Positions 2,015 to 46,991 of a stretch of DNA of 64,000 bases are shown piece after piece. Source of the stretch: a virus. Each line of letters opens with the position of its first letter. The first letter of the stretch is position 1. Location of the stretch: the IMG/VR virus record IMGVR_UViG_3300031857_000025; one strand, given 5' to 3'. A program made the translations under genes and the position numbers. The notes below the pieces were generated by a model, which saw only the letters and a program-made list of their open reading frames with translations, ran no database searches and was not told the origin of the DNA.

Positions 2015-2064
2015 ATATTTATAACTATAAAAAGTTTTGTTGGATATTTATTAAAAAAAGAATT

Positions 2065-4009: not shown

Positions 4010-4026
4010 GTAAGAGAGGTTGATTA

Positions 4027-4413: not shown

Positions 4414-4442
4414 TATATTTATTTAAAACATAAAAGGAAAAC

Positions 4443-5180: not shown

Positions 5181-5200
5181 AATATATATAAAGTAATAAC

Positions 5201-5425
5201 ATGAAAGCATCAGAGTTTAAAAAACTAATCCGTGAAGAGGTTAAAAACGTCTTAAAGGAAGCTACAGTTAAACTTGGGCCTGACAAAAATTTTATTTTAA
5301 AAAACTATAAAGGAGGTGTACTACTTCAAAAATTAGACCCTAACGGAGGTCAAGTACATAGCGAAATGCTTATCCTTAAAAATGAAATACCAGATGTAAT
5401 TGCTTTCTTAAATAAGAATAAATAA
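5201..5425 (+). CDS. putative virion-internal protein
   Basis: FKKLIREEVKNVLKEA leader paralogous to that of 4443. Confidence 0.5.
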   Translation: MKASEFKKLIREEVKNVLKEATVKLGPDKNFILKNYKGGVLLQKLDPNGGQVHSEMLILKNEIPDVIAFLNKNK

Positions 5426-5452
5426 TAAAACTACACGCCCCCAGAATATTAG

Positions 5453-5475
5453 AGCCGGTTTCATCCGGCTTTTTT
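5453..5475 (+). terminator. rho-independent terminator
   Basis: AGCCGG-tttcat-CCGGCT followed by a T run. Confidence 0.8.
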
Positions 5476-5609
5476 ATTGGCTAAGGATATATTTATATAA
5501 AATAACAAATGATAAATAAAAATATTTCACTTTTTTCTTGTTTAATGAAAAGTAAGTACTTATATTTAAAGCAAATTAATAATAATCAATAATAAAAAAG
5601 GAGTAACAA

Positions 5610-6380
5610 ATGGCTATTAATTTAGATGCTATTAAAGCAAAACTTAACAAATTACAAACACAGACTACACGTCAGAACAATCTTTGGAAGCCTGAACCGG
5701 GCAAGCAGCAAATTCGTATTGTACCTTATCAATACAACAAAGAGAATCCATTTCAAGAACTTTATTTCCATTATGATCTAGGTAAGAAGAATTTCTTATC
5801 TCCGATCACTCATGGCAATCCAGATCCAGTAGTGGAATTTGCTGACAAGCTTAAATCTTCAGGTAATTCAGATGAATGGAAATTAGGTAAGAAACTAGAA
5901 CCAAAAATGCGTTGCTATGTTCCTATCATTGTTCGTGGTAAAGAGTCCGAAGGTGTTAAATTCTGGGGTTTTGGTAAGACAGTCTATGCTGAATTATTAG
6001 GGTTCATTGCTGACCCAGATTACGGTGATCTAACCGATCCAATGAATGGTCGTGATATTGTAATTGAATTTACACCAGCCGAAGGTGGTGCATATCCAAA
6101 GACAACTTTACGTATTAAACCAAATACAACACCATTGACTACGGATCGTAATATTGCTGAAAAGATCGCTCAACAGCAACCAAATCTCGGAGAAATTTTC
6201 AAAGAACCGACTTACAATGAACTTAAAGAAGCATTGGAGCAATGGTTGAATCCTAGTGATGATGATGCTGATACATCTGTATCGACTGCATCTCATGATG
6301 AAGATGAAGCACCATTTTCACCTAATGTAAGTAAAGTTGATGACGTAAGTGCAGCGTTTGATGAATTGTTTAACGAATAA
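5610..6380 (+). CDS. single-stranded DNA-binding protein (gp32-like)
   Basis: WKP...IRIVP, VKFWGFGK, DP..GRD motifs; acidic tail AFDELFNE; heads the replication cluster. Confidence 0.8.
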   Translation: MAINLDAIKAKLNKLQTQTTRQNNLWKPEPGKQQIRIVPYQYNKENPFQELYFHYDLGKKNFLSPITHGNPDPVVEFADKLKSSGNSDEWKLGKKLEPKMRCYVPIIVRGKESEGVKFWGFGKTVYAELLGFIADPDYGDLTDPMNGRDIVIEFTPAEGGAYPKTTLRIKPNTTPLTTDRNIAEKIAQQQPNLGEIFKEPTYNELKEALEQWLNPSDDDADTSVSTASHDEDEAPFSPNVSKVDDVSAAFDELFNE

Positions 6381-6400
6381 TATTTTAAAGGAGTTACAAA

Positions 6401-7540
6401 ATGGCAGTATCTAAAAGTGATCTGTCGGATGAATTAGCCGGTGAATTGGCTAGTAATCTGAACAAAAAATTTAAAGGATCTGGATACAAGACCGCATACT
6501 TTTTAGAGGGAGATGTTGATTCTCCTTCTAATGTATCCGGTTGGGTAGGAACAGGTTCAAGTATGCTTGATTTAGCTATATCAAATCGTCCAGGAGGTGG
6601 TTTTCCGATTGGTCGTATCGCTGAGATAACTGGTCTAGAAGCTTCTGGTAAGTCGTTATTGGCTACTCATGCATTAGCTGATACACAGAGACAAGGAGGA
6701 TTGGCAGTTTACATTGATACCGAGAGTGCAGTTAGCAGTGAGTTTCTTGAAGCTATCGGTATTGATTTAACTAAAATGTTATATGTTCCATTGGAAACTA
6801 TGGAAGATATCTTTGAAGCTATTGAATCTATTGTTGAATCAGTACGTAAATCGAACAAGGATCGATTGGTTACTATAGTAGTCGATTCGGTCATGGGCGC
6901 ATCTACAAAGGTAGAAATGGCAGCCGAATTTGATAAAGATGGTTGGGCAACTAGCAAAGCCATTATCTTATCAAAAGGTATGCGTAAAATTACCAATATG
7001 ATTGCTCGTGAGAAGATATGTCTACTATTTACCAATCAGTTACGATCTCGACTAGGAGTTAGTTTTGGTGATCCATGGACTACCTCTGGTGGTAAGGCTA
7101 TTCCATTTCATGCTTCTGTACGTCTTCGTCTTAAGTCTATAGGTCAAATCAAGGCTAAGGATGCTAAAGGTGTTGAGCAGATCATTGGAATCAAGACCCG
7201 AGCTCAAGTAATTAAGAATCGTATGGGACCTCCTTTGAAGTCTATTGATTATGATATTTACTTTGAGTCTGGTATTGATAATTACGGTGGATGGTTGGAA
7301 GTGATGAAAGAGTATAAGTTAGTTAGTCAGGCAGGTGCTTGGTATACTTATACAAGAGAGAATGGTACGGCTGTTAAGTTCTTATCAAAAGATTTTCAAG
7401 GAGCGTTGGAAAAGGATAAGACCCTAATGGATGAAATATACAAAGCTATTTGTGATGCATATATCTTCCGTTACCAAGCAGGCTCTATTGGAATTGATGA
7501 CATTGAAATTGACGAGGACTTTATTAGTGAAGAATCATGA
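6401..7540 (+). CDS. recA: RecA/UvsX recombinase
   Basis: GLEASGKS Walker A, YIDTE, VVDSV, FTNQLR, GGKAIPFHASVRL. Confidence 0.92.
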   Translation: MAVSKSDLSDELAGELASNLNKKFKGSGYKTAYFLEGDVDSPSNVSGWVGTGSSMLDLAISNRPGGGFPIGRIAEITGLEASGKSLLATHALADTQRQGGLAVYIDTESAVSSEFLEAIGIDLTKMLYVPLETMEDIFEAIESIVESVRKSNKDRLVTIVVDSVMGASTKVEMAAEFDKDGWATSKAIILSKGMRKITNMIAREKICLLFTNQLRSRLGVSFGDPWTTSGGKAIPFHASVRLRLKSIGQIKAKDAKGVEQIIGIKTRAQVIKNRMGPPLKSIDYDIYFESGIDNYGGWLEVMKEYKLVSQAGAWYTYTRENGTAVKFLSKDFQGALEKDKTLMDEIYKAICDAYIFRYQAGSIGIDDIEIDEDFISEES

Positions 7541-8583
7541 AGACTAGATATCTTGAAATCTTAAAACAAGTTGAACAGGAACATACCAGTGATAAGACTA
7601 CTGATCGAAACAGTAGAATACTTATTATTGACGGATTGAATACGTTCATCAGAGTATTTTCTGCAGTACCTGCATTAAACGATGACGGTGAACATATTGG
7701 CGGAGTAACGGGCTTTTTAAGGTCCGTTGCTTCGGTCATCCGTGACTATAAGCCAACTAGATGTATTGTAGTATTTGACGGTAAGGGTGGTTCTGCGAGA
7801 CGTAAGAAAGTTTACTCTCAATACAAAGCTAACCGAGCCGTTAAGACCCAATTCAACCGATACCAAGAATTTGCAAATCTTGAAGACGAATCATTATCAA
7901 TGAAACGCCAATTTGGTCGTATTATTGAATATCTACAAGTATTGCCAGTAACTACATTAGCAGTTGATAATGTTGAAGCTGATGATATTATAGCATATAT
8001 TGCCAATGAAATTTATACTAAAGATGAACAAAAGGTAACTATTGTATCTACAGATAGAGATTTCTTACAACTAGTTAATCATCGTATCAATGTATGGAGT
8101 CCGGTTAAGAAGATTCTATATAATCCAGTACGATTAGAAGAAGAACTAGGTATTCCGTCAAAGAACTATTTAATGTATCGAACATTTATAGGTGATAAGT
8201 CAGATAACATACCTGGCATTAACGGCGTAGCATTAAAAACAATGCTCAAGCATTTTCCAATCATGACAGAAGATCGTCAAATAAGTATTGATGATATAAT
8301 GGACTATGCTAAGGGACAAGATAAACCGACTCGTATACATGAAGCAGTATTAAACAGCAAAGAAACATTAGAACTCAATTACAACCTAATGCAACTTAAG
8401 AATGTTGATATTCCAGGTAATGCCAAGATGCTAGCCATTAATACTGTTAATGATCCAGTATCAAAGACCAATGTATATGAATTCAAGAAAATGTTCATGA
8501 TGGATAAAATGTATACCATTATTAAAGATGTGGATACTTGGTTAACAGCATTTAATACCTTAAATGCTTATGCAAATATTTGA
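7537..8583 (+). CDS. 5'-3' exonuclease / T4 RNase H-like flap nuclease
   Basis: LIIDG, VFDG, YKANR, EADD, STDRD, GDKSDNIPGING. Confidence 0.9.
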   Translation: MKTRYLEILKQVEQEHTSDKTTDRNSRILIIDGLNTFIRVFSAVPALNDDGEHIGGVTGFLRSVASVIRDYKPTRCIVVFDGKGGSARRKKVYSQYKANRAVKTQFNRYQEFANLEDESLSMKRQFGRIIEYLQVLPVTTLAVDNVEADDIIAYIANEIYTKDEQKVTIVSTDRDFLQLVNHRINVWSPVKKILYNPVRLEEELGIPSKNYLMYRTFIGDKSDNIPGINGVALKTMLKHFPIMTEDRQISIDDIMDYAKGQDKPTRIHEAVLNSKETLELNYNLMQLKNVDIPGNAKMLAINTVNDPVSKTNVYEFKKMFMMDKMYTIIKDVDTWLTAFNTLNAYANI

Positions 8584-13353: not shown

Positions 13354-13361
13354 AGGTGTAT

Positions 13362-13841
13362 ATGACAAGATATGTCTCAACAAAGCTATTCGAAAACTAC
13401 TCTGTCGCTATTCGTCAATGGAAAGCACAACATTCTCATTGCCAACTATTACATGGTTATGCTTTGAAGTTCAAAGTATGGTTTGCTAGTAATGAGCCAG
13501 ATATTGATAACCAATTAGATGATATGAATTGGATTGTTGATTATGGTGGATTTAAAACTCCGCCTCAGGGTAATGGACTAAAAGATTGGATGAATCATAT
13601 GTGGGATCATACAACATTAATTCAAAAGGATGATCCTTACCGTGATTTGTTTGAATCTATGCAAATGGAAGGTATATGTAAAGTGCACTTCCTAGATAAA
13701 ATGGGAGCGGAGAGTTGTGCTCGTTTAGTATATGAACATTTCAATAAGGTATTATCTAATACTGATGCTGGTAGATGTAAATGTATTAAAGTAGAATGTT
13801 TTGAAAATGATAGTAACAGTTCAATTTACGAAGAAATATGA
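13362..13841 (+). CDS. queD: 6-carboxy-5,6,7,8-tetrahydropterin synthase
   Basis: HCQLLHGY, WDHT, GAES, C-terminal E-N T-fold pattern. Confidence 0.85.
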   Translation: MTRYVSTKLFENYSVAIRQWKAQHSHCQLLHGYALKFKVWFASNEPDIDNQLDDMNWIVDYGGFKTPPQGNGLKDWMNHMWDHTTLIQKDDPYRDLFESMQMEGICKVHFLDKMGAESCARLVYEHFNKVLSNTDAGRCKCIKVECFENDSNSSIYEEI

Positions 13842-14620
13842 AACCAGGTAGAATAACAGATTATAATAAACAGTTACCAATAGTAGAATTATATTATTGT
13901 GTACAGTCAGAGGGTAGCCGTTCTGGTATGCCAACCGTATGTGTACGTACTACCGGATGTACTCATAGATGCTGGTTCGGAGAAGGCGGATGGTGTGATT
14001 CATGGTATACTAGTATTCATCCAGAGAAAGGAGGATTTAGTTTTAATGATATCAAAAAGATGTATGATGATCGTCCAGATATCAAAGAAATGATGTTAAC
14101 AGGTGGTTCACCTACTATGCATCCTGATCTAGTAAATGAATTAACTCATTTTGCTAATGAACGTGGTATTTTAATTACAATGGAAACGGAAGGTAGTCAT
14201 TTCATTGAAACAGATTATCCAATTGGATTGATTTCATTGTCACCTAAGTTTAGTAATAGCGTACCTAAGGTCGGCGTTGCAACTCCTAAAGGAGCTACTA
14301 CTGATCAGCGTATGATAGATCAACATAATAAGTTTCGTCTTAAGTATGATGTGATGAAACAGATGATTGCTTATCATTCTGATTATCATTTCAAGCCAGT
14401 ATGTAATCCTACGGAAATGCCTGAGGTATGGGAAGAAATAGAAAAAGCTAGAGAAACATTAGGAATTCCAAAAAATAAAACTTATATTATGCCTCCAGGT
14501 GATAATAGAGATGAACTTATCAGAGTATATCCAATGGTAATGGACTTCTGTAGAGATAATGGATTTAATTTTACAGGTCGAGAGCATATCATTGCTTTTG
14601 ATACTAAACGATGTGTATAA
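13838..14620 (+). CDS. queE: 7-carboxy-7-deazaguanine synthase (radical SAM)
   Basis: QSEG, RTTGCTHRC...WCDS, LTGGSP, ETEG, SLSPK. Confidence 0.88.
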   Translation: MKPGRITDYNKQLPIVELYYCVQSEGSRSGMPTVCVRTTGCTHRCWFGEGGWCDSWYTSIHPEKGGFSFNDIKKMYDDRPDIKEMMLTGGSPTMHPDLVNELTHFANERGILITMETEGSHFIETDYPIGLISLSPKFSNSVPKVGVATPKGATTDQRMIDQHNKFRLKYDVMKQMIAYHSDYHFKPVCNPTEMPEVWEEIEKARETLGIPKNKTYIMPPGDNRDELIRVYPMVMDFCRDNGFNFTGREHIIAFDTKRCV

Positions 14621-14634
14621 AAAGGAGAATAGTT

Positions 14635-14931
14635 ATGAACATGAAACCAATGGGCGACCAGGTGTTGCTGAAAGAAAGAGAAAAGAAAGAAAAAACGACT
14701 TCAGGTATTATTCTTATGAATGGAGCTGAAGGTTACTATGTAACGGCAGATGTTATTGCAGTAGGTGATGGTTTGTTTACTCAAACCGGAGATCGTATTC
14801 CAATGACAGTCAAGCCAGGTGACATTGTTATGATACATAAGAATGACACTACAGATAATAAAAAAGTAAAAATTGATGATCAGGAGTATGTACTAGTACG
14901 TGAATCTGATATCGCAATGTATCAACAATAA
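14635..14931 (+). CDS. groES: co-chaperonin GroES
   Basis: MKPMGDQVL, KTTSGIIL, VIAVGDG, VKPGD, RESDI. Confidence 0.9.
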   Translation: MNMKPMGDQVLLKEREKKEKTTSGIILMNGAEGYYVTADVIAVGDGLFTQTGDRIPMTVKPGDIVMIHKNDTTDNKKVKIDDQEYVLVRESDIAMYQQ

Positions 14932-14932
14932 T

Positions 14933-15652
14933 ATGGCAGAAAAGAAACAATTAGGTAACTCGTTAGAAACTGTACAATCAGGATTTGCTAACGGTGTATC
15001 AAGTCATTTGGCAAAGAAACAAGCTCTCGAAGGTCCAAATGCTAAACTATCACAAGACGAAAAGCAACAAATTATCGATGAAGCTGCATATTACTTTGCA
15101 AAGTTTTTATCGGCATTAGGTGTTGATTGGGAGAATGATCCTAATTCAAATGATACACCTCGACGTGTTGCAAAGGCATATGTAAATGATTTATGGGCAG
15201 GTCGATTCAATTCGGCTCCGGAGATTACAGCATTTCCTAGTGACGGATATGATGGTATAGTATTTGAGGGGGGTATTCCATTGACTTCAATGTGTTCGCA
15301 TCATCATCAGACTATTATGGGTAGAATCCATGTAGCATATATTCCAGGTGAGAATGGTAAGGTTGTAGGTTTAAGTAAACTTAATCGTATTGTTGAGCAT
15401 TTTGGAAGACGTGGTGCAATACAAGAACAGTTAACAGTTGCCATTCATAATGCAGTTAATACTATTATTGAAGACAATAAAGGTGTAGCTGTTATGGTAG
15501 AGGCTACTCATAACTGTGTACAATGTCGTGGTGTTAAACATGGCGGAGCTAGTATGAAGACATCTAAACTAACTGGTGCATTCAAAGAAGATCCAGCTAC
15601 AAGAAATGAGTTTTATGAATTTATAAGAGGTTATGGAAATACTAATTCCTGA
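14933..15652 (+). CDS. folE: GTP cyclohydrolase I
   Basis: TPRRVAK, SMCSHH, GLSKLNR, IQEQLT, HNCVQCRG. Confidence 0.93.
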   Translation: MAEKKQLGNSLETVQSGFANGVSSHLAKKQALEGPNAKLSQDEKQQIIDEAAYYFAKFLSALGVDWENDPNSNDTPRRVAKAYVNDLWAGRFNSAPEITAFPSDGYDGIVFEGGIPLTSMCSHHHQTIMGRIHVAYIPGENGKVVGLSKLNRIVEHFGRRGAIQEQLTVAIHNAVNTIIEDNKGVAVMVEATHNCVQCRGVKHGGASMKTSKLTGAFKEDPATRNEFYEFIRGYGNTNS

Positions 15653-16136
15653 ATATAAAATTGAGCGTAGAGTAAGAGCTCTAGCTCATAAGATTACAGA
15701 AGATCATAGGAACAGTGGTAATTCATTGCCACCTGTACTAGTCTGTGTATTAAACGGTGCGTTCATGTTCTTTTCTGATTTAGTTAAGGACATGGGTACG
15801 GATTGTGAAATCGATTTTATTAGACCTAAGTCATACCATGGCCAAGATAATTCCGGTGGTGTTAAATTTTATAAGGAATTAGAATTGGATCTTAAAGGTA
15901 AGCGGGTTTATATTATTGAGGATATTGTCGATACTGGTTCTACTATGTTAGAGATTTTACAAAAGGTAGATGATCGCCGACCCGCCGAAATACGAGTTGT
16001 TACATTGGTACATCGTAAAGGAAGTAAGCATCATGTTGACTTTAATGCCTTTGAAATTGAAGATGAGTGGGTAGTTGGATATGGACTCGATGATAACGGA
16101 TTAAAAAGAAACTATAGAAACATTTATAAGAAATAA
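15633..16136 (+). CDS. hpt: hypoxanthine/guanine phosphoribosyltransferase
   Basis: VLNGAFMF, IIEDIVDTGST PRPP loop, VVGYGLD. Confidence 0.9.
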   Translation: MEILIPEYKIERRVRALAHKITEDHRNSGNSLPPVLVCVLNGAFMFFSDLVKDMGTDCEIDFIRPKSYHGQDNSGGVKFYKELELDLKGKRVYIIEDIVDTGSTMLEILQKVDDRRPAEIRVVTLVHRKGSKHHVDFNAFEIEDEWVVGYGLDDNGLKRNYRNIYKK

Positions 16137-18607
16137 TGTACCAAGCAGTAGCATATCAACAAAGGACTAATACTGTCCATATTTGGGATGACCAGAAAGG
16201 TCATTTGCAGATCAAGTATAAACCATATGCATATCGTAAATCAAGTTACGGTAAGTATGTAGCATTAGATGGTAATACTGTCGATAAAGTATTTCAGTTT
16301 GACAAAGAAGAAGAAGGACTATACGAGGCAGATATTAATCCGGAGACAAGAACATTAATTGATATGTATACAGATTCAGATGATTTATCTATAGGTCATA
16401 GTACCATGTTTATAGATATTGAGGTTGATATTGAAAACGGATTTCCTACTCCAGAAGAAGCTCAGAATGAAGTAACATCAATTGCAATTTATGACCAGGC
16501 CGGCGATAATCGAAAGGTATGGGTGCTAGATAAGGCAGGAGTAGTGACATCCACCAACTTAATTACATCATGTCGTACAGAGTATGAATTGTTACAACAG
16601 TTCTTATTAAGTTACTATGAGATCAAGCCAACTATTATTACTGGATGGAATATTGATTTCTTTGATATTCCGTATTTGTATAATCGTATGTGTAAGATAT
16701 TAGGTGAGAATATTGCCCGTACATTATCTCCTATTAAAGATGTCATATGGCTGAAACATCGTAACAGATATCGAATCTCCGGAGTTAGTTGTTTAGATTA
16801 CTTAGCATTATATAAAAACTTTACTTATTCAGAAGAGTCTAGTTATTCTTTAGAAGCTATATCTCAAAAAGAATTAGGCAGAGGTAAGCTTAAGTATGAT
16901 GGTAACCTTAATGATTTAATGCGTACGGATATCAATAAGTATGTAGAGTATAACTTAAATGACGTTGAGCTGGTACTTGAGATTGATAACAAGATGAAAT
17001 TGTTAGACTTGGCTCGAGGTATTTGTCATAAAGGGCATGTACCATATGAGGATGTATATTTCTCTACTAGATACTTAGATGGCGCATCATTAACTTATCT
17101 TAAACGCTTAGATATTGTCGCTCCAAGTAAAAGACCTAGAGAAGAAGGACAAGGTGTTGATCTGTTAGGAGCATACGTTAAGGTACCTGTACCGGGGCGT
17201 TATAAATGGATATACGACCTTGACTTAACCTCGCTATATCCTAGTATCATTATGACACTTAACATTTCACCTGAAACGAAATTGTTTAAGTTAGATAAAT
17301 TTGATGGTAAGGAATATGTAAAGAATACTGGTACTCATTATTCATATCGTGATACTGGTTGGGCTACAAGTGAAGAATTACGTAATCATCTAGAGACGAA
17401 CAAGTATTCAATTGCAGCTAATGGAGTTGTATATAAGACAGATGAAAAAGGATTCATACCATCTATTCTTGAGAAGTGGTTTAAAGAACGTGTTGATTAT
17501 AAGAATCTTAAGAAGAAGTATGAAAAGGAAGGAGATAAAGCCAAGGCAGAATACTTTGATAGATTACAGTTAGTGACGAAGATCTTGCTTAACTCATTCT
17601 ATGGAGCGTTAGGTAATGCCGGATTCCGATTCTTTGATCCTGATAATGCAGTGGCTGTAACAAGTACGGGTCAGCAGTTAATTAAGTTTACGGCTGATAT
17701 TGGTAATATGTTTTATAAGAAAGAGTTAGGAGTTGAAAAAGATTATTGTATTTATACAGATACAGATTCAACTTTCTTTTCATCATTACCTATCATACAG
17801 AAACGATATCCAGATGGTAATATAACAGATGAACAATGGATGGCAGAAAAGACTATTGAAGTAGCTAATGAAGTACAAGCATTTATCAATAAGTCATATG
17901 ATATGTACGCCAGTAAGTTCCATAATGTTAATACTCATAGATTTGATATTAAGCAAGAGTTTGTAGCCAAGGCAGGTATTTGGATTGCCAAGAAACGATA
18001 TGCCCAATGGCTAATCAATCAGGAAGGTCATACTATATCTCGTTTGGATGTTAAAGGTATGGACGTTGTTAGATCAAGTTTCCCAGTAGCGTTCCGTAAG
18101 TTCATGTCTGAGGTATTGAAAGATATCTTAAATGATATTGATAAGACTGCATTGGATACCAAGATCTTAAATTTCAAAGATAACCTAAAGACATTACCGA
18201 TATTAGATATCATGGCACCTACTGGTGTTAAAGAGATAAGCAAGTATACTACTAAGCATGCTAAGCCATTTGCAATGCGACCAAAAGGTACTCCGGTCCA
18301 TGTTAAATCAGCATTAAACTATAATGATCTTCTTAAGCATCATAGTATTACAAATATTCGTGAGATCATGGACGGTGAAAAGATTAAATGGTGTTACATA
18401 AAAACAAATCCATTGAACTTGGATTCATGTGCATTGAAAGGATATGATGATCCAGAACCTATATGGAATTTTGTAGAACAGTATATAGACCATGATAAAA
18501 TCTTTAAGTCAGCATTTCAAAATAAACTAAATGACTTCTATCAGGCACTTAATTGGGGTAGTGTTCCTGAGAATAACAATATGGCAAAATTCTTTAGTTT
18601 TTCTTAG
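16136..18607 (+). CDS. family B DNA polymerase
   Basis: DIEVD and GWNIDFFD exonuclease motifs, DLTSLYPS, KILLNSFYG, YTDTDS. Confidence 0.95.
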   Translation: MYQAVAYQQRTNTVHIWDDQKGHLQIKYKPYAYRKSSYGKYVALDGNTVDKVFQFDKEEEGLYEADINPETRTLIDMYTDSDDLSIGHSTMFIDIEVDIENGFPTPEEAQNEVTSIAIYDQAGDNRKVWVLDKAGVVTSTNLITSCRTEYELLQQFLLSYYEIKPTIITGWNIDFFDIPYLYNRMCKILGENIARTLSPIKDVIWLKHRNRYRISGVSCLDYLALYKNFTYSEESSYSLEAISQKELGRGKLKYDGNLNDLMRTDINKYVEYNLNDVELVLEIDNKMKLLDLARGICHKGHVPYEDVYFSTRYLDGASLTYLKRLDIVAPSKRPREEGQGVDLLGAYVKVPVPGRYKWIYDLDLTSLYPSIIMTLNISPETKLFKLDKFDGKEYVKNTGTHYSYRDTGWATSEELRNHLETNKYSIAANGVVYKTDEKGFIPSILEKWFKERVDYKNLKKKYEKEGDKAKAEYFDRLQLVTKILLNSFYGALGNAGFRFFDPDNAVAVTSTGQQLIKFTADIGNMFYKKELGVEKDYCIYTDTDSTFFSSLPIIQKRYPDGNITDEQWMAEKTIEVANEVQAFINKSYDMYASKFHNVNTHRFDIKQEFVAKAGIWIAKKRYAQWLINQEGHTISRLDVKGMDVVRSSFPVAFRKFMSEVLKDILNDIDKTALDTKILNFKDNLKTLPILDIMAPTGVKEISKYTTKHAKPFAMRPKGTPVHVKSALNYNDLLKHHSITNIREIMDGEKIKWCYIKTNPLNLDSCALKGYDDPEPIWNFVEQYIDHDKIFKSAFQNKLNDFYQALNWGSVPENNNMAKFFSFS

Positions 18608-18658
18608 GTTTTTTAAGAGTTTGTATTTATATTTAGTCAAATTAAAAAATAATAAGTT

Positions 18659-19075
18659 ATGTACGGTGAGCAGTATTGGTATGGTAAAGAGGTCGAAGGT
18701 CGATACTCTGATGTTGAAACAGTTTTTGTAAGAAGTGGTATTCCTACGGATATTTTAGAGTATCCTCATGCATACTTTACAATTGAGTATGTGCGAGAAA
18801 TGATTAAAAAGAATGATTGGTCAATTGTACATATGATTCTTAAGACTCGTCAAATTGTAACGGTCGAAGCTACTGCTGATACATTAGATCATATTCCAAT
18901 GTCAGTATTTAATAGAGCACATATTATCTATCGTATTCCTGATAGTCATTTGGCTAAACTAAAGAAAACTGATACATTGTCAATTGATGCTGGTTGGTAC
19001 CGAGTTCATCAGATTATGAAATGCAACTTAATGGAAATCAATCCAGATGATTATAAATTCGATAGATTAAAGTAA
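18659..19075 (+). CDS. hypothetical protein, first gene of the GT/TGT operon
   Basis: own promoter at 18604-18635; TAATG coupling to the next gene. Confidence 0.65.
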   Translation: MYGEQYWYGKEVEGRYSDVETVFVRSGIPTDILEYPHAYFTIEYVREMIKKNDWSIVHMILKTRQIVTVEATADTLDHIPMSVFNRAHIIYRIPDSHLAKLKKTDTLSIDAGWYRVHQIMKCNLMEINPDDYKFDRLK

Positions 19076-20265
19076 TGAAAAGAAATATATTTTATTTTGG
19101 CCTAGAGCCATTAAAAGCTAGATATACTTATCAGCTATGCGAAGAATGGATGCCTAAAACTTTTGAGGCATACAAAGATCGTTTAAACTTTATTCCGATG
19201 CCAGGAGAGTTCGATCCCGATCAAGAAATCAAAGTAGGTGCCGTGTTAGATGCAATTGGTAGAGGCAAGTATAGTTTGACTCAATGTCAAAACTTCTTGA
19301 AAATGATCTATGATGGTACGGTTAAAGACGGTGACGTTATTTTCTTGCAAGACTATTGGACTCCAGGTTTAGATGCTATTTGGTATGCTTTGGATTTATA
19401 TAATATCAAAGTTAAGGTATATGCAATGTTACATGCTCAATCAGTTGATGAATATGACTTTACATATCCGATGGCATATTGGATGCGTCATTATGAGTTA
19501 GGATTGGATCAACGCATGACCAGTATCTTTGTAGGAAGTACTATCCATAAAGAACAATTGAGAGCGGCTGGGTTCAAAGCTCCTATACATGTTGTATCGT
19601 TACCGATTCATAAACAAGCTACATTAGATGTATTACCTGAATGGAATACATTGGATAAGAAAAATGTAATTGTATACTCAAGTCGATTTGATAAGGAAAA
19701 GAATCCATTCTTCATGATGGAAGTAGCTGAACAGTTCTTGAAAAAGAATCCGCGATATGAATGGCACGTAACTACATCCGGCAAAGAGTTCCGTAGTATG
19801 TTACCAGGTGTTATCGATGCTATGAATGCATTAGCAAAACGTCAGCCTAGATTTAAAATGTTGAAAGGTTTAACTAAGCAAGAATATTATACAGAGTTAG
19901 CTACATGTAAGGTACAGTTTAATACATCATTACAAGATTATGTATCATGGACTGTTATCGAGTCAACTGCATTTGGAGCTGATATCGTGTTTCCTAATTT
20001 CAGATCATTCCCAGAGTTTATTGATGCATCTCGATTGTATAAACCGTTTGATGTTCAAGATGCGTTAACGGTATTAAATAATGTACTAGGTAATACTAAA
20101 ACTCATTATGATATTGTTGATCGTTCTGACTTGGGTAGACAAATGGAAGGATATATCATTGCCAATGATTTTGATAAGGAGATATGTATTTGGCATGAAA
20201 CAGAATATTGTAAAGCACTTATCAATAGTGAAGTAAAAAATAATCAATTGGAGTTAGAACTATAA
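19075..20265 (+). CDS. GT-B fold glycosyltransferase
   Basis: SRFDKEKNP, SLQDYVSWTVIE, FPEF donor-binding region. Confidence 0.7.
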   Translation: MKRNIFYFGLEPLKARYTYQLCEEWMPKTFEAYKDRLNFIPMPGEFDPDQEIKVGAVLDAIGRGKYSLTQCQNFLKMIYDGTVKDGDVIFLQDYWTPGLDAIWYALDLYNIKVKVYAMLHAQSVDEYDFTYPMAYWMRHYELGLDQRMTSIFVGSTIHKEQLRAAGFKAPIHVVSLPIHKQATLDVLPEWNTLDKKNVIVYSSRFDKEKNPFFMMEVAEQFLKKNPRYEWHVTTSGKEFRSMLPGVIDAMNALAKRQPRFKMLKGLTKQEYYTELATCKVQFNTSLQDYVSWTVIESTAFGADIVFPNFRSFPEFIDASRLYKPFDVQDALTVLNNVLGNTKTHYDIVDRSDLGRQMEGYIIANDFDKEICIWHETEYCKALINSEVKNNQLELEL

Positions 20266-21452
20266 TGAAAAATCTAATATACTACCCGTCATTATCAGCA
20301 GGAGGCTGTGCTGGCGACTTTAAAAATAACAAAGAAGTAAAGCCAGGATTAACTAGCCGCTTCTATTCAAAGGAGTTTCCGGAACCATGGAGACATCCTT
20401 ATTTTCTAATTACAGCTGGTCACCATTATAAATGGATGGATGCTCGTCAAAGATATGGTTTAGAAGAAGATGTAAAGGTATTGGGCGATTCGGGTGGTTT
20501 CCAGTTAGCGACTGGTGCTATCAAATGGGATCCGAAGTTCAAAGAAACTATCTTTCAATGGTTAGAGCAAAATTGTGATATCGGAGTTAATCTTGATATT
20601 CCGCCTCGCGTGAAGTATGATGGTAAGTTCTATGAGTGTTTAGATATTAGCTATGATAACTTTAAATACTTTGCTGAGAACCAAACGGGTAAGTGTAAGT
20701 TCTTAAATGTTGTACAAGGTAACAATGTTAATGAATATGATATCTGGTATAACCGTGTCAAGGACTTTGATTTCAATGGTTGGTCGATCGGAGGTACACA
20801 GAAAGGTATAGCGTTGTTTATGGCCGCTTTGGTACCAATGTTAAGACATAAAGAATTTGAAAAAGAACGTAATATGTATGTACACGTATTAGGTATTTCA
20901 AAGATATCAGATTTCTTTATGTTGAGCTTCTTTCAAAAGATGCTAAATAAGTATCATGGAGGTCGTATACAAGTATCAACTGACTCTAGTTCACCGGGTC
21001 AATATCCTGTATATGGTACATACTTGCATTCACCACAGTTAACTAAAATGACATTCACTCATTTGTATTTTCCTAAAGGTGATAATCTTCCTTATAATCC
21101 AACTGACCTAGTACCTAATCCATATGGTCATCCAGTAAGTGAAGGATTTACTTTTGGCGAGGTAGCTAACTATAAAGGTGATGTTACAATGAAGATGACC
21201 TTGAATAACTTGTTTGTATATAATGAAACGGTTAAGCAGGTAGAACAAATTGTACATTGTCATAACGAATTACTACAAACGGTTGTACCTACGGATTTAT
21301 ATAATATATTAATGAGTATGGAAGAAATGTTTCAGAACCCAGACCAGGCTTTACATATCTATGAAAAGAATATTCAATTGTATAGTAAGTATGGTGGAAC
21401 AACTAATGACATGGTAAATAATAACGTAATAACTCAATTCTTCGAGATATAA
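20265..21452 (+). CDS. TGT/DpdA-like guanine transglycosylase
   Basis: DSGGFQ, LDIPP, VVQG, WSIGG, HVLG, STDSSS TGT-family catalytic motifs; no C-terminal Zn cysteines as in tRNA TGT. Confidence 0.8.
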   Translation: MKNLIYYPSLSAGGCAGDFKNNKEVKPGLTSRFYSKEFPEPWRHPYFLITAGHHYKWMDARQRYGLEEDVKVLGDSGGFQLATGAIKWDPKFKETIFQWLEQNCDIGVNLDIPPRVKYDGKFYECLDISYDNFKYFAENQTGKCKFLNVVQGNNVNEYDIWYNRVKDFDFNGWSIGGTQKGIALFMAALVPMLRHKEFEKERNMYVHVLGISKISDFFMLSFFQKMLNKYHGGRIQVSTDSSSPGQYPVYGTYLHSPQLTKMTFTHLYFPKGDNLPYNPTDLVPNPYGHPVSEGFTFGEVANYKGDVTMKMTLNNLFVYNETVKQVEQIVHCHNELLQTVVPTDLYNILMSMEEMFQNPDQALHIYEKNIQLYSKYGGTTNDMVNNNVITQFFEI

Positions 21453-21453: not shown

Positions 21454-22173
21454 ATGAAAAAGACAGAACTATTAAATTACATCAGCCGTTATCACCTAGC
21501 CGGCGCAACTACTTCAGTTAAGTGGAATGCAAGTGGTGGATCATTACAAAGTAGTTTTATTACTGATGACCAGAACGTAATTGGTTCTGTATCAGCTAAT
21601 ATTGACTTAGGTAATCAGACATTAGGCGTTTATGCAACACCTCAATTGGTAAAAATGTTATCTGCAGTAGGAGATGATGTTGAGATTGATGTCAAGGATA
21701 TTGACGGCAAAGCTGTTAGTATGGATATTTCAGATAAAGAAGTTAACATGACATTTATGTTAGCAGACTTATCAGTTATTCGTCAGGTACCTGAATTAAA
21801 GCAATTGCCAGATTGGAATGTTATGGTACCATTGGACAAGGAATTTGTAAGTAGATTTATCAAGGCAAAGAATGCATTACCTGAGTCTGAAAACTTTGGT
21901 GTTAATTGCAAGAACGGTAAAACTGAGTTTATTGTAAATTATTCTTCTATTAATACTAGTCGTATTAAATTTGAAGTTACATGCCAAGCAGATACTTGTA
22001 AGAATATGGATACGGTATGTTTTTCTAGTAACCTATTCAAAGAAATTCTCCAGGCAAATAAAGATGCAGAGACTGCAAAACTAGAAGTATCTCAGGCAGG
22101 TTTAGCTCGTGTAACATTTGCATCTCAAAACTATACATCAACTTATTATTTGGTTCAATTACAAACTGCATAA
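21454..22173 (+). CDS. sliding clamp (gp45/PCNA-like)
   Basis: 239 aa, two-domain pattern, C-terminal STYYLV; lies next to the clamp loader. Confidence 0.7.
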   Translation: MKKTELLNYISRYHLAGATTSVKWNASGGSLQSSFITDDQNVIGSVSANIDLGNQTLGVYATPQLVKMLSAVGDDVEIDVKDIDGKAVSMDISDKEVNMTFMLADLSVIRQVPELKQLPDWNVMVPLDKEFVSRFIKAKNALPESENFGVNCKNGKTEFIVNYSSINTSRIKFEVTCQADTCKNMDTVCFSSNLFKEILQANKDAETAKLEVSQAGLARVTFASQNYTSTYYLVQLQTA

Positions 22174-22174: not shown

Positions 22175-22612
22175 ATGAAAGTACGTTTTAAGAAATTATC
22201 CGAAAAGGCAGTAACTCCTAGCTATGCAAAGCCGGGAGATGCTGGCCTGGATATGACGGCTATACAATACACCGTTGATCCAGATTACAACTTCCTAGAA
22301 TACCATACTGGCATTGCTGTTGAAATACCTGAGGGATATGTAGGATTATTATTTCCTAGGTCATCAGTATCTAAAACAGATCTAGTACTAGCTAATTGTG
22401 TAGGGGTTGTTGATAGCGGTTATCGTGGAGAAATTAGATTCCGATACAAGTTTGCTCGTAAGGAGTACTTTGCTAATGTACGTAGATTCCAAGAGGGAGA
22501 GCGTGTAGGTCAATTAGTAATAATACCTTATCCGGCAATTGAATTAGAACAAGTAGAACATTTAAGTGATACAGAACGCGGTGAGGGTGGTTACGGTAGT
22601 ACGGGGAAATAA
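22175..22612 (+). CDS. dut: dUTPase
   Basis: DAGLD, PRSS, GVVDSGYRGE, RGEGGYGSTG. Confidence 0.95.
   Translation: MKVRFKKLSEKAVTPSYAKPGDAGLDMTAIQYTVDPDYNFLEYHTGIAVEIPEGYVGLLFPRSSVSKTDLVLANCVGVVDSGYRGEIRFRYKFARKEYFANVRRFQEGERVGQLVIIPYPAIELEQVEHLSDTERGEGGYGSTGK

Positions 22613-22791: not shown

Positions 22792-22814
<23 letters not shown>
22614..22814 (+). CDS. hypothetical protein
   Basis: fills the gap between dut and the clamp loader. Confidence 0.5.
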
Positions 22815-25357
<2,543 letters not shown>

Positions 25358-25369: not shown

Positions 25370-25597
25370 ATGGCAAAGAAAAATATCAATGAAACAGTAG
25401 GACAAAAGCGCATCAGCGCAGAAGACCTTCCAAATATTGTATGTGAAAATTGTGGTGGTAGATTTTTTAGACAGGTGCATGCTTTTAAGCGTGTGCCTGC
25501 TATTTTATCTCAATCTAGCAAAGAAGAAATTGTTCCAATTCCAACTTTTCGTTGTGACGACTGTGGTCATATCAATGAAGAATTTATGCCTATATGA
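25370..25597 (+). CDS. zinc-ribbon protein
   Basis: CENC...CDDC. Confidence 0.65.
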   Translation: MAKKNINETVGQKRISAEDLPNIVCENCGGRFFRQVHAFKRVPAILSQSSKEEIVPIPTFRCDDCGHINEEFMPI

Positions 25598-26055
25598 GTG
25601 ATAAACCTGTAACAAAAGCAGCTACTATATTTGATCATTTATCTAATATTACGGATAAGAAAAAGGACTGGAGTTCTCTATCAGAAGCAGATCGTAAGTC
25701 CTTTAGTCCTTATCTAATTAATAGATGGCTATCAATGGATCCGGATCTTATTGAGATAGTAAATGAGTTTCAACATTATACAATAGGTGTTTTAGATACT
25801 AAACATGTATACCAGTTATATCATGATCTGTTACCTAAACGTAAATTCTTTACAAAGTATATTAAAGGTAAGTCAGAGGATAAGTATAATAAGGATCTGA
25901 TTGAGTTTATTGCTGATCATTATGCTGTATCTAAGCGAGAAGCTACAGAATATATTAGTATGATGATAGATTTGGATTCTACAGAGTTAGTCGGTATATT
26001 AAGCAAGTACGGTAAAACGGAAAAAGAAATTAAGAACTTATTAAAAACAAAATAA
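25594..26055 (+). CDS. clamp loader small subunit (gp62-like)
   Basis: FSPYLINRWLS motif, size and context. Confidence 0.65.
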   Translation: MSDKPVTKAATIFDHLSNITDKKKDWSSLSEADRKSFSPYLINRWLSMDPDLIEIVNEFQHYTIGVLDTKHVYQLYHDLLPKRKFFTKYIKGKSEDKYNKDLIEFIADHYAVSKREATEYISMMIDLDSTELVGILSKYGKTEKEIKNLLKTK

Positions 26056-46625: not shown

Positions 46626-46991
46626 ATGATTGAAACTAAAACAAACATTATTATACGCTTCCAATTAGACGGAATGCATAACTTTCCTAAAGCAGCTGTA
46701 CTATTTCCAGAAGCAGCTTTCCTAGCAGATAGACATCGTCATATGTTCCATTTTGAACTACATAAACAAGTTAATCATGATGACCGTGATGTGGAGTTCA
46801 TTTGCTTCAAAAGAGATGTAATGAACTACTTAACAGATAAGTACTCAGATAATTATAAAAGAACTCTGGAGTTTGGTGCTATGTCATGTGAAATGATTGC
46901 TCGTGAATTGCTGGAGTATTTTGATTGTGAACGAGTATCAGTATTTGAAGATGGAGAGAATGGAGCAGAAATTTATAAGGTAAACAAATGA
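46626..46991 (+). CDS. QueD-like T-fold protein (DpdL-type, putative CDG decarboxylase)
   Basis: LADRHRHMF (LxxxHRHxF), DRDVEF, SCE, EDGENG. Confidence 0.7.
   Translation: MIETKTNIIIRFQLDGMHNFPKAAVLFPEAAFLADRHRHMFHFELHKQVNHDDRDVEFICFKRDVMNYLTDKYSDNYKRTLEFGAMSCEMIARELLEYFDCERVSVFEDGENGAEIYKVNK

What the first reader, a model, noticed from the sequence alone, without database searches (positions are those of the whole stretch)
18572..21452. The transglycosylase and the DNA polymerase end in the same clamp-binding-like motif
Seen: PolB ends NNNMAKFFSFS (18572-18607) and the TGT/DpdA-like protein ends NNNVITQFFEI (21417-21452). Both fit N-x-x-[MI]-x-x-F-F. The clamp gene starts 2 nt later, and the adjacent glycosyltransferase ends NNQLELEL, resembling QLxL clamp motifs. 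Known: PIP boxes (Qxx[ILM]xxFF) tether enzymes to PCNA/gp45-type clamps. Inference: base exchange rides the sliding clamp behind the fork, which would permit dense co-replicative G substitution. I know of no description of this coupling.
Basis: partly seen in the sequence, partly recalled or inferred. Interest (0 to 1): 0.8.

Follow-up and report, generated by a model that had tools for sequence, protein, structure and literature searches.

The report
Clamp-docking tail on phage DNA transglycosylase
In this uncultured marine phage, the enzyme predicted to swap guanine in DNA for a 7-deazaguanine base ends in the same short peptide as the phage DNA polymerase; the peptide is conserved and changes in step with the polymerase's across distant phages, so the enzyme probably docks on the sliding clamp encoded next door, although binding has not been measured.

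Summary
PolB (16136-18607) ends NNNMAKFFSFS and the TGT/DpdA-like protein (20265-21452) ends NNNVITQFFEI. The next gene (21454-22173) is a gp45/PCNA-fold sliding clamp.

- **Conservation:** the DpdA-like tail is a conserved island (hydrophobic-x-x-F-F, both F invariant) behind a variable linker, kept down to 47% identity.
- **Synteny:** the clamp gene directly follows the DpdA-like gene in 57 of 57 related contigs.
- **Co-variation:** in other lineages both enzymes share a different tail. Examples are Acidovorax phage ACP17 (SLDDLFE / TLDELFE) and Vibrio phage 2.275.O (NNTDLFDW / NNNDLFGW). Exact permutation gives p 0.002-0.01.
- **Model:** a complex model puts V388, I389, F392 and F393 in the canonical clamp pocket (score 0.64, best control 0.18). 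This could reflect the model's memory of PCNA-PIP structures.

The tail is a T4 gp43/gp55-type clamp tail rather than a canonical PIP box, because the N/Q anchor is not conserved. The glycosyltransferase has its own variable QLELF / QLELxL tail; I did not test what it binds. Dense co-replicative substitution is untested. I found no paper describing the coupling. Earlier AI notes of this scan reached the same reading on other DNA. Best reading: clamp-tethered base exchange, confidence about 0.7.

The parts
16136..18607 (+). Family B (T4 gp43-type) replicative DNA polymerase, 823 aa
   Evidence: Pfam DNA_pol_B E 1.7e-33 and exonuclease domain E 1.2e-22; phrog_262 E 2e-191. tblastn gives 44% identity to Microcystis phage Mel-JY01 PolB and about 32% to cyanomyophage gp43.
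18572..18604 (+). PolB C-terminal tail NNNMAKFFSFS, the presumed clamp-binding tail
   Evidence: PENNN[LMV]GKFF[SA]F is kept in all 44 related IMG/VR loci that hold the PolB end and as xxFFxF in the distant contigs L076-L078. T4 gp43 and gp55 end in SLDFL[FY], which binds gp45 (PMC2988020).
18659..19075 (+). Conserved 138-aa protein of unknown function between PolB and GT
   Evidence: No Pfam, PHROG or NCBIfam hit. Present in 53 related loci with a conserved PDDYKFD near the C-terminus.
19075..20265 (+). GT-B (Glycos_transf_1-like) glycosyltransferase, 396 aa; its stop overlaps the DpdA-like start
   Evidence: Pfam PF00534 E 2.3e-5, below the curated cut-off; phrog_2170 glycosyltransferase E 9e-5.
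20239..20262 (+). GT C-terminal tail NNQLELEL: a variable short motif, Q-[LMY]-x-h-F or Q-L-x-L-x-L
   Evidence: The motif lies in the last 18 aa of 30 of 39 distinct orthologue tails and of 0 of 607 other ORFs. The 9 orthologues that lack it stop right after the globular domain. Binding partner not tested.
20265..21452 (+). Divergent TGT-superfamily protein (DpdA-like DNA transglycosylase candidate), 395 aa
   Evidence: 53 of 118 homologues hit Pfam TGT. Three homologues about 50% identical to it score above the gathering cut-off. Its own weak hits are NCBIfam DpdA E 0.002 and arcTGT E 0.002. DSGGFQ (75-80) and TDSSSP (239-244) are invariant. It sits with FolE, QueD, QueE and DpdL genes here and in relatives.
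21399..21416 (+). Variable linker (residues 379-384 shown; the linker runs to about residue 388) after the conserved Y373...GG378 end of the fold
   Evidence: Column entropy is 1.8-2.8 bits at residues 379-388, against a protein mean of 1.23, in 19 sequences non-redundant at 80% identity.
21417..21449 (+). DpdA-like C-terminal tail NNNVITQFFEI, the presumed clamp-docking motif (h389-x-x-F392-F393)
   Evidence: F392 and F393 are invariant and position 389 is F, L or I. The FF tail is kept in almost all of the 117 full-length homologues (P0080 ends NFLNF, and P0109/P0112 carry the FF internally) and in 65 loci. In the complex model the lowest-error contacts are V388, I389, F392 and F393.
21454..22173 (+). 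Sliding clamp (gp45/PCNA fold), 239 aa
   Evidence: The profile of 126 homologues hits RB69 gp45 (E 8e-5), PCNA (E 9e-5) and T4 gp45. AF2 pLDDT 97. Foldseek top hits are T4 gp45 6drt and PCNA at E about 1e-11, TM 0.65-0.75. NCBIfam 'DNA polymerase sliding clamp' E 1.5e-5. It lies directly downstream of the DpdA-like gene in 57 of 57 loci.
22175..22612 (+). dUTPase
   Evidence: Pfam PF00692 E 1.2e-20.
22792..23721 (+). RFC/gp44-like AAA+ clamp-loader subunit
   Evidence: Pfam AAA E 6e-19 and DNA_pol3_delta2 E 3e-14.
25594..26055 (+). Clamp-loader A subunit (gp62-like)
   Evidence: Pfam PF16790 Phage_clamp_A E 6e-6, 27.1 bits against a cut-off of 27.
13356..16136 (+). 7-carboxy-7-deazaguanine pathway genes QueD (13356-13841), QueE (13838-14620) and FolE (14900-15652), with GroES (14611-14931) between them and a purine-type phosphoribosyltransferase (15633-16136)
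   Evidence: Pfam PTPS, Radical_SAM, GTP_cyclohydroI and Pribosyltran. The same set lies upstream of PolB in related contigs.
46626..46991 (+). DpdL homologue (proposed CDG decarboxylase that gives 7-deazaguanine)
   Evidence: 39% identity, E 1e-26, to phiST CGPG_00067, which is DpdL. It carries the DpdL signature LxxxHRHxF. In L076-L078 the homologue lies between PolB and the DpdA-like gene.

Best explanation
The 395-aa protein is a divergent TGT-superfamily DNA transglycosylase (DpdA-like). It most likely inserts a 7-deazaguanine base into phage DNA, probably 7-deazaguanine itself, made by FolE, QueD, QueE and DpdL. After its folded domain, which ends in a conserved GG, comes a variable linker of about 10 residues. 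The protein then ends in a short hydrophobic motif (V/x-I/F-x-x-F-F) of the same kind as the tail of the phage's gp43-type DNA polymerase.

I propose that this tail inserts into the hydrophobic pocket under the interdomain connector loop of the phage's trimeric gp45/PCNA-like clamp, encoded by the next gene. Clamps loaded at the fork, or left on newly made duplex, would then hold the transglycosylase on freshly replicated DNA. The clamp has three sites, so polymerase and transglycosylase could share one ring.

Shown here: the genes, the clamp fold, conservation of the tail, synteny, and co-variation with the polymerase tail. Inferred: the binding itself (model only), the DNA base-exchange activity, the identity of the base, and any effect on the density or timing of modification.
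For: (1) The tail is a conserved island. F392 and F393 are invariant and position 389 is F/L/I in 19 sequences non-redundant at 80% identity, while the linker at 379-388 is more variable than the protein average. The tail is kept in almost all of the 117 full-length homologues down to 47% identity and in 65 IMG/VR loci.

(2) The clamp identity is solid. The clamp gene directly follows the DpdA-like gene in 57 of 57 loci and in the distant contigs L076 and L077; in L078 a GroEL gene lies between them.

(3) The tails co-vary between the two enzymes within genomes. Window clade..KFFSF / ..QFFEI. ACP17..SLDDLFE / ..TLDELFE, and its DpdA-like protein is homologous to this family (hhalign 96%). Vibrio phage 2.275.O..NNTDLFDW / ..NNNDLFGW, with a clamp homologue between the genes, and only 3 of 509 CDS end this way. 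PA5oct..FDSLFGW / internal ..FNSLFDV. Exact permutation of the pairings gives p 0.004 (8 lineages), 0.002 (9, including the non-matching QD01) and 0.01-0.017 when the FF clade counts once.

(4) Three TGT-like homologues in phages where the search found neither PolB nor clamp (Peetri, PhiXhv-12; GR7B was searched for the clamp only) end in lysine-rich basic tails instead.

(5) Complex model of the clamp trimer with DpdA residues 356-395: score 0.64 against a best control of 0.18. That mark was reached by 58 of 80 solved complexes and 2 of 110 mismatched pairs. The runs agree in at least 47% of contacts and the partner's pLDDT is at least 43. The contacts are V388, I389, F392 and F393 with clamp residues 39-43, 111-119 (connector loop), 215-217 and 232-237, which is the canonical client pocket.

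(6) Established precedent: the T4 gp43, gp55 and gp33 C-terminal tails bind gp45, are interchangeable and sit behind divergent linkers (PMC2988020; T4 tails read). T4 ligase binds gp45 through an internal PIP-like loop (PMC6212786).
Against: No binding has been measured. The complex model can score high from memory of the many solved PCNA-PIP and gp45-peptide structures, and the partner's own confidence is low (pLDDT 43-51).

The motif is internal in some relatives: L078, P0109 and P0112 have FFDF followed by a 24-aa extension, and PA5oct has it about 30 aa from the end. It is altered in P0080 (NFLNF), and the Phosso pair matches only weakly. A DpdA2-like relative in the T4-like Vibrio phage QD01 does not share its polymerase's tail.

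The co-variation test rests on nine lineages, all that I could find, and the FF clade members are not independent of one another. TGT membership of the window protein itself rests on homologues and motifs: it has no Pfam hit of its own and its family profile finds nothing in the PDB. phiST reaches complete G replacement with a DpdA3 that has no clamp tail, so tethering is not needed for dense modification.
Confidence: 0.7

Rival explanations
1. The shared tail binds some other replisome partner common to PolB and the DpdA-like enzyme, not the clamp. Candidates are the gp32-like SSB, the DnaB-like helicase or the clamp loader.
For: Co-variation and conservation show only that the partner is shared, not which protein it is. 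The window also encodes gp32-like, DnaB-like and RecA/UvsX-like proteins.
Against: The polymerase is of gp43 type, and the gp43 C-terminal tail is the documented gp45 ligand. In ACP17 the shared tail is nearly the T4 SLDFLF motif. The clamp gene is the invariant neighbour. The model places the tail in the canonical clamp pocket, and replacing the clamp with an unrelated protein scored 0.00.
Confidence: 0.1
2. The tail is an intramolecular or oligomerisation element of the DpdA-like enzyme, for example a strand that packs on its own or a partner's barrel as in TGT dimers. Its likeness to the PolB tail would then be coincidence.
For: TGT enzymes are dimers (stated in PMC6884629). Short aromatic C-termini are common packing elements.
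Against: A coincidence does not explain why the tail flavour changes together with the polymerase's in ACP17, Vibrio 2.275.O and PA5oct. It also does not explain the variable linker in front of the motif, or why three homologues in phages where no clamp was found carry basic tails instead.
Confidence: 0.07
3. The protein does dock on the clamp but is not a DNA base-exchange enzyme. It could be an inactive TGT-fold scaffold, or an enzyme acting on tRNA or nucleotides, and the modified base would enter DNA as a dNTP through the polymerase. The adjacent phosphoribosyltransferase could make the nucleotide.
For: The window protein is very divergent and lacks the Cys-rich stretch (HVPCSLxCPAC) that stands in the majority consensus of its homologues. 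A purine-type phosphoribosyltransferase sits next to PolB and is conserved there. A pre-replicative route was once proposed for Campylobacter phages (PMC6884629). Cui et al. saw no dDG when ACP17 or phiST dpdA and dpdL were expressed in E. coli.
Against: The catalytic-type motifs DSGGFQ and TDSSSP are invariant across the family. Homologues pass Pfam's TGT cut-off. The family always travels with deazaguanine synthesis genes. Cui et al. 2023 argue that all known phage 7-deazaguanine modifications are inserted by a DpdA. PA5oct, which has a homologue, resists restriction enzymes with G in their sites.
Confidence: 0.12

Closest known systems
Clamp-binding C-terminal tails of T4/RB69 gp43, gp55 and gp33 on gp45 (PMC2988020; RB69 clamp-peptide structure 1b8h)
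   Same: A short hydrophobic motif at the extreme C-terminus behind a divergent linker, shared between the replicative PolB and other clients of a trimeric two-domain clamp. In ACP17 the shared tail (SLDDLFE / TLDELFE) is nearly the T4 motif SLDFLF.
   Different: The client here is a DNA base-exchange enzyme, which is not among the described gp45 clients. The motif flavour in this clade is h-x-x-F-F, closer to the aromatic half of a PIP box.
Canonical PIP box Q-x-x-[ILM]-x-x-[FY]-[FY] on PCNA, including DNA-modifying clients such as DNMT1 and UNG2 (from general knowledge)
   Same: A hydrophobic residue at position 4 and an aromatic pair at positions 7-8. The modelled contacts are the connector loop and the hydrophobic pocket. 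The principle is the same: a DNA-modifying enzyme is held on new DNA by the clamp.
   Different: The position-1 Q (N here) is not conserved in the DpdA-like family. The motif must sit at or near the C-terminus. The clamp is a phage gp45/PCNA-like protein only 11-17% identical to the solved clamps.
Phage DpdA transglycosylases: DpdA1-4 and bacterial DpdA (PMC6884629, PMC10516641, PMC10164549)
   Same: TGT superfamily, DSGG[FL]Q-type motif, co-located with FolE, QueD, QueE and DpdL. The ACP17 homologue sits among the ACP17 deazaguanine synthesis genes and is most likely the ACP17 dpdA that Cui et al. cloned.
   Different: No detectable similarity to phiST DpdA3. Only weak, below-cut-off hits to the NCBIfam DpdA model, and no hit to Pfam's DpdA family PF23859. 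The relation to a DpdA2-like protein is remote (hhalign 88%). None of the papers I read mentions a clamp-binding tail.
T4 alpha-glucosyltransferase binding gp45 (hypothesis from 2004 in vitro work, cited in bioRxiv 10.64898/2025.12.06.692756)
   Same: A phage DNA-hypermodifying enzyme proposed to act together with replication by riding the clamp. The GT next to the DpdA-like gene here also carries a tail motif.
   Different: The T4 interaction was not reproduced in vitro or in vivo in the 2025 preprint, which used C-terminally His-tagged enzymes. T4 alpha-GT has no gp43-like tail. Here the evidence is a conserved, co-varying motif.
Bacterial beta-clamp-binding motifs QL[SD]LF and QLxLxL (from general knowledge)
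   Same: The GT tails read QLELF, QMELF, QLELAL and QLELEL at or near the C-terminus.
   Different: The phage clamp is of gp45/PCNA type, not a beta clamp. The host is unknown. No binding test was possible.

Membership tests
Sliding clamp, gp45/PCNA type | Two-domain clamp protomer fold | tested here: met
   AF2 model at pLDDT 97. Foldseek top hits are T4 gp45 and PCNA, E about 1e-11, TM 0.65-0.75.
Sliding clamp, gp45/PCNA type | Sequence-profile relation to known clamps | tested here: met
   Profile A1 against the PDB: RB69 gp45 E 8e-5, PCNA E 9e-5, T4 gp45 E 0.006. NCBIfam sliding clamp E 1.5e-5, below its cut-off. No Pfam hit.
Sliding clamp, gp45/PCNA type | Cognate clamp loader encoded nearby | tested here: met
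   RFC/gp44-like AAA+ protein at 22792-23721 and a gp62-like Phage_clamp_A protein at 25594-26055.
Sliding clamp, gp45/PCNA type | Closed trimeric ring that is loaded on DNA | not testable with these tools
   Three copies were folded together, but the ring itself was not scored.
T4-type C-terminal clamp-binding tail | Short hydrophobic motif at the C-terminus behind a variable linker | tested here: met
   Entropy profile; tails of 117 homologues and 65 loci.
T4-type C-terminal clamp-binding tail | Same motif as the cognate replicative polymerase | tested here: met
   Window, L076, L077, ACP17 and Vibrio 2.275.O match clearly; PA5oct and L078 match with an internal motif; Phosso is weak; QD01 does not match. 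Permutation p 0.002-0.017.
T4-type C-terminal clamp-binding tail | Physical binding to the clamp's hydrophobic pocket | not testable with these tools
   Model only: score 0.64 against a best control of 0.18, a mark reached by 58 of 80 solved complexes and 2 of 110 mismatched pairs. Contacts lie at the connector loop and the C-terminal pocket.
Canonical PIP box | Conserved Q at position 1 | tested here: not met
   The window has N. The position is variable in the family (N, A, E, K; entropy 2.8).
Canonical PIP box | Hydrophobic residue at position 4 and an aromatic pair at positions 7-8 | tested here: met
   I389 (F, L or I in the family) and invariant F392 and F393.
TGT / DpdA superfamily | Match to the TGT family model | tested here: inconclusive
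   The window protein has no Pfam hit and only weak NCBIfam hits (DpdA E 0.002, arcTGT E 0.002). 53 of 118 homologues hit PF01702, and three at about 50% identity pass the gathering cut-off. The family profile finds nothing in the PDB.
TGT / DpdA superfamily | Catalytic aspartates in DSGG[FY]Q-type and D-S-x-x-type motifs | tested here: met
   D75 in GDSGGFQ and D240 in TDSSSP are invariant in 118 sequences. Both align with the matching motifs of the QD01 DpdA2-like protein; the DSGG motif alone aligns with ACP17. Assigning them as the catalytic residues rests on general knowledge of TGT.
TGT / DpdA superfamily | Zinc site (Cys cluster plus His) | tested here: not met
   The majority consensus of the homologues carries HVPCSLxCPAC; the window protein has no such Cys cluster at that place.
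TGT / DpdA superfamily | Genomic association with 7-deazaguanine synthesis | tested here: met
   FolE, QueD, QueE and DpdL here and in L076-L078. QueE in PA5oct. QueF, QueC and a YhhQ-like transporter in Vibrio 2.275.O. FolE, QueD and QueE in ACP17.
TGT / DpdA superfamily | Guanine-for-deazaguanine exchange in DNA | not testable with these tools
   Needs an enzyme assay or LC-MS of virion DNA.
DpdA3 (phiST / CP220 type) | Sequence similarity to phiST CGPG_00065 | tested here: not met
   hhalign probability 0.2%. The family profile A2 finds nothing in phiST or CP220.
Beta-clamp-binding motif (GT tail) | QL[SD]LF or QLxLxL pattern at the terminus | tested here: met
   30 of 39 distinct GT tails, 0 of 607 background ORFs.
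Beta-clamp-binding motif (GT tail) | Binding to a clamp | not tested
The host and its DnaN are unknown.

The most novel reading that the evidence does not exclude
The phage runs a replisome-coupled hypermodification line. The clamp holds both the transglycosylase (FF tail) and the neighbouring glycosyltransferase (QLELF / QLELxL tail) on nascent duplex, so guanine is replaced by a 7-deazaguanine base, and possibly decorated further, within seconds of synthesis and to near completion. Clamp docking would then be the missing requirement that explains why ACP17-type DpdA with DpdL gave no product in E. coli.
Probability: 0.25. Interest if true: 0.85.

Novelty: new variant of a known kind. Interest (0 to 1): 0.7.

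Why it matters
Phage 7-deazaguanine DNA modifications are currently described as post-replicative base exchange by free-standing DpdA enzymes. Why the extent of replacement ranges from under 0.1% to 100%, and why some DpdA enzymes are inactive when expressed alone in E. coli, is unexplained (PMC10516641).

A clamp-docking tail shared with the polymerase, found here and in cultured phages (ACP17, Vibrio 2.275.O, PA5oct), gives a concrete and cheap test of how the enzyme finds new DNA. It adds a new class of client to the phage clamp 'toolbelt'. It also suggests a practical fix for reconstitution: co-express the clamp and its loader.

The co-varying tail is a useful annotation handle as well. 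It marks very divergent TGT-like proteins as DNA-directed, replisome-associated enzymes.

Tried and rejected
- A single-sequence fold of the clamp gave pLDDT 39 and was useless. It was replaced by a fold on an alignment.
- The window has no near-identical DNA among the isolated phages, and no whole genome is held for it.
- The DpdA-like profile A2 found nothing in the PDB.
- The search for related loci with the Vibrio 2.275.O and PA5oct TGT-like proteins found nothing in viral contigs. tblastn with the Vibrio protein added no new lineage.
- The supplements of Cui et al. 2023 are not held.
- phiST DpdA3 shows no similarity to this family and has no tail. I could not locate the CP220 DpdA3, so I did not test whether DpdA3 in a T4-like phage carries a gp43-like tail.
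- The profile search for clamps in phage records missed the Vibrio 2.275.O clamp that hhalign found. 'No clamp' in Peetri, PhiXhv-12, GR7B and NCTB is therefore weak evidence.
- The NCTB homologue ends ...AVAGW, which is ambiguous; its polymerase was not examined.
- The 75-aa zinc-ribbon protein at 25370-25597 ends INEEFMPI. Its conserved CGHINxEF belongs to the ribbon itself and is followed by variable basic tails in relatives, so I rejected it as a clamp tail.
- The 188-aa ORF at 101-667 (ends LSDLLEFYQ) has no family hit. I considered it as a gp55-like clamp client and left it open.
- The FEN/RNase H-like nuclease at 7537-8583 has no such tail.

Full report
**What is there.** Window 13.3-26 kb is a T4-style replication and nucleotide module, all on the + strand.
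- QueD, QueE, GroES, FolE and a purine-type phosphoribosyltransferase come first.
- Next is a gp43-type family B polymerase at 16136-18607.
- A conserved unknown 138-aa protein and a GT-B glycosyltransferase (19075-20265) follow.
- The 395-aa TGT-like protein (20265-21452) and a 239-aa protein (21454-22173) come next.
- Then dUTPase, an RFC/gp44-like clamp-loader subunit, GroEL, and a gp62-like clamp-loader A subunit.
- Upstream lie gp32-like SSB, RecA/UvsX-like, FEN-like and DnaB-like genes.
- There is no close relative among isolated phages. Many related marine and freshwater viral contigs exist.

PolB ends NNNMAKFFSFS and the TGT-like protein ends NNNVITQFFEI, at the stated coordinates. The clamp ORF starts two bases after the TGT-like stop codon. 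The GT ends NNQLELEL. Only these two of 90 ORFs in the window carry h-x-x-F-F within five residues of the end, against 0.23 expected.

**The 239-aa protein is a sliding clamp.**
- Alone it has no Pfam hit, and its single-sequence fold was poor.
- A profile of 126 diverse homologues hits RB69 gp45, a PCNA and T4 gp45.
- The fold built on the alignment has pLDDT 97. Its best structural matches are T4 gp45 and PCNAs at E about 1e-11.

**The 395-aa protein is a divergent TGT-superfamily enzyme.**
- It has no Pfam hit itself.
- 53 of 118 homologues hit PF01702, and three at about 50% identity pass the curated cut-off.
- It has weak NCBIfam hits to DpdA and arcTGT.
- GDSGGFQ and TDSSSP are invariant across the family.
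- Relatives in cultured phages sit among deazaguanine genes: QueE in PA5oct; QueF, QueC and a YhhQ-like transporter in Vibrio phage 2.275.O; FolE, QueD, QueE and a DpdL-like gene in ACP17.
- PA5oct DNA resists restriction enzymes with G in their sites (PMC12191111).
- The family is not DpdA3: it shows no similarity to phiST CGPG_00065. It is only remotely related to a DpdA2-like protein.

**The likely base.** The window also holds a DpdL homologue at 46626-46991 with the LxxxHRHxF signature. No QueC was seen near the cluster. The inserted base is therefore probably 7-deazaguanine, as in phiST. This is an inference.

**The tail is a conserved short motif.**
- In 19 sequences non-redundant at 80% identity, F392 and F393 are invariant and position 389 is F, L or I.
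- The ten residues in front are more variable than the protein average.
- The tail is kept in almost all of the 117 full-length homologues down to 47% identity and in 65 viral contigs.
- The PolB tail PENNN[LMV]GKFF[SA]F is kept in all 44 contigs that hold the PolB end.
- The clamp gene directly follows the DpdA-like gene in 57 of 57 contigs.
- The order PolB - (DpdL or p138) - GT - DpdA - clamp - RFC persists in distant contigs.

**The strongest evidence is co-variation.** In other lineages the polymerase and the TGT-like enzyme share a different tail.

| Lineage | PolB tail | TGT/DpdA-like tail |
|---|---|---|
| Window | ..NNNMAKFFSFS | ..NNNVITQFFEI |
| L076 | ..NNNAKKFFSFGK | ..AENFNKYFKF |
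| L077 | ..SNNINKFFKF | ..EEILTKFFQ |
| L078 | ..NDSLAEFFSF | ..SREFFDF, then 24 more residues |
| ACP17 | ..PSLDDLFE | ..TTLDELFE |
| Vibrio 2.275.O | ..NNTDLFDW | ..NNNDLFGW |
| PA5oct | ..HFDSLFGW | internal ..SFNSLFDV |
| Phosso | ..FNDLFTF | ..KIVEGLF (weak match) |

- Clamp homologues lie beside the polymerase in Vibrio 2.275.O, PA5oct and Phosso, and one is present in ACP17.
- In Vibrio 2.275.O only 3 of 509 annotated proteins end LF[DEG]W: the polymerase, the TGT-like protein and a 74-aa protein.
- An exact permutation test of which polymerase tail goes with which TGT-like tail gives p 0.004 for 8 lineages.
- It gives p 0.002 for 9 lineages when the non-matching schizo-T4 phage QD01 is added, and 0.01-0.017 when the FF clade counts once.
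- Three homologues in phages where the search found neither PolB nor a clamp (Peetri, PhiXhv-12; GR7B was searched for the clamp only) end in lysine-rich tails. That clamp search can miss distant clamps.

**Model of the complex.** The clamp trimer with DpdA residues 356-395 scored 0.64 against a best control of 0.18.
- That mark was reached by 58 of 80 solved complexes and 2 of 110 mismatched pairs.
- The runs agree in at least 47% of contacts, and the partner's pLDDT is at least 43.
- The lowest-error contacts are V388, I389, F392 and F393 with clamp residues 39-43, 111-119, 215-217 and 232-237. These are the connector loop and the C-terminal pocket used by PIP and gp43 peptides.
- Because many such complexes are solved, this shows likeness, not binding.

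**Comparison with the known.** The design is that of T4: gp43, gp55 and gp33 share hydrophobic C-terminal tails behind divergent linkers, and the tails are interchangeable (PMC2988020).
- I read SLDFLFG in T4 gp43 and SLDFLYEAND in gp55.
- T4 ligase uses an internal PIP-like loop (PMC6212786), so the internal motifs in PA5oct and L078 are not disqualifying.
- The tail here is not a canonical PIP box, because position 1 is not conserved.
- T4 alpha-glucosyltransferase was proposed to ride gp45, but a 2025 preprint did not reproduce the binding; it used C-terminally tagged enzymes.
- I found no paper that links DpdA or TGT-like enzymes to a clamp.
- Cui et al. 2023 call all phage 7-deazaguanine insertion post-replicative. 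[quoted passage not shown] A missing clamp is one testable candidate.
- Earlier AI notes of this scan reached the same reading on other genomes. I treat them as leads only.

**The glycosyltransferase tail.** After the fold ends (...WHExEYCxALL), most orthologues add a variable stretch ending in QLELF, QMELF, QLELAL, QLE[IF]NF or QLELFG.
- This is seen in 30 of 39 distinct tails and in none of 607 background ORFs. Nine orthologues simply lack the extension.
- The motif resembles both the bacterial beta-clamp motifs and T4's LDFLFG. Its partner is open.

**Limits.** Nothing here measures binding, enzyme activity, the base, or the extent or timing of modification. phiST shows that complete replacement does not need a clamp tail.

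Noticed in passing
window 46626-46991: DpdL homologue (39% identity, E 1e-26, to phiST DpdL; signature LADRHRHMF). With FolE, QueD and QueE, and no QueC seen near the cluster, this predicts 7-deazaguanine (dDG) as the inserted base. In L076-L078 the homologue lies between PolB and the DpdA-like gene.
   Followed up: partly
window 20239-20262 and GT orthologues in L001-L075: The glycosyltransferase carries its own variable tail motif (QLELF, QMELF, QLELxL, QLELFG): 30 of 39 distinct tails, 0 of 607 other ORFs. It is absent where the protein stops right after the fold. It resembles beta-clamp motifs and T4's LDFLFG.
   Followed up: partly
L101 (Acidovorax phage ACP17, KY979132.2) 849-3413 and 6779-8053: A cultured phage whose PolB (..SLDDLFE) and DpdA-like protein (..TLDELFE) share a T4-like tail. 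A clamp homologue lies about 4 kb upstream. Cui et al. 2023 could not reconstitute ACP17 dpdA with dpdL in E. coli. This is a ready test system.
   Followed up: partly
L084 (Vibrio phage 2.275.O, MG592671.1) 78-6473 and L099 2214-2438: The order here is PolB, clamp homologue (239 aa), two small ORFs, TGT-like protein. Both enzymes end NN.DLF.W. A 74-aa Cys-rich protein (NVP2275O_204) ends SSLFEW and may be a third clamp client.
   Followed up: partly
L082 (Peetri), L083 (PhiXhv-12), L081 (GR7B): TGT-like homologues in phages where no PolB or clamp was detected end in long lysine-rich tails. These may be an alternative, direct way of holding on to DNA.
   Followed up: no
window 18659-19075: A conserved 138-aa protein always sits between PolB and GT, with a conserved ...PDDYKFD... 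near its end and no family hit. It may be another part of the modification module.
   Followed up: no
window 15633-16136: A purine-type phosphoribosyltransferase sits immediately before PolB and is conserved there in L076 and L078. It could salvage the guanine released by base exchange, or it could ribosylate a deazaguanine base.
   Followed up: no
window 101-667: A 188-aa ORF with no family hit ends LSDLLEFYQ, a hydrophobic-acidic tail of the kind T4 gp55 (185 aa) uses to bind the clamp. I did not test whether it is a late sigma factor.
   Followed up: partly
window 707-2014: A 435-aa protein matches only the C-terminal part of the family A DNA polymerase model (E 5e-11), in a phage that also has a full PolB.
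   Followed up: no
L078 10001-11254 and P0109, P0112: In this sub-lineage the DpdA-like motif (REFFDF) is followed by a 24-residue lysine-rich extension, and GroEL lies between the DpdA-like gene and the clamp gene. The motif is internal here.
   Followed up: no
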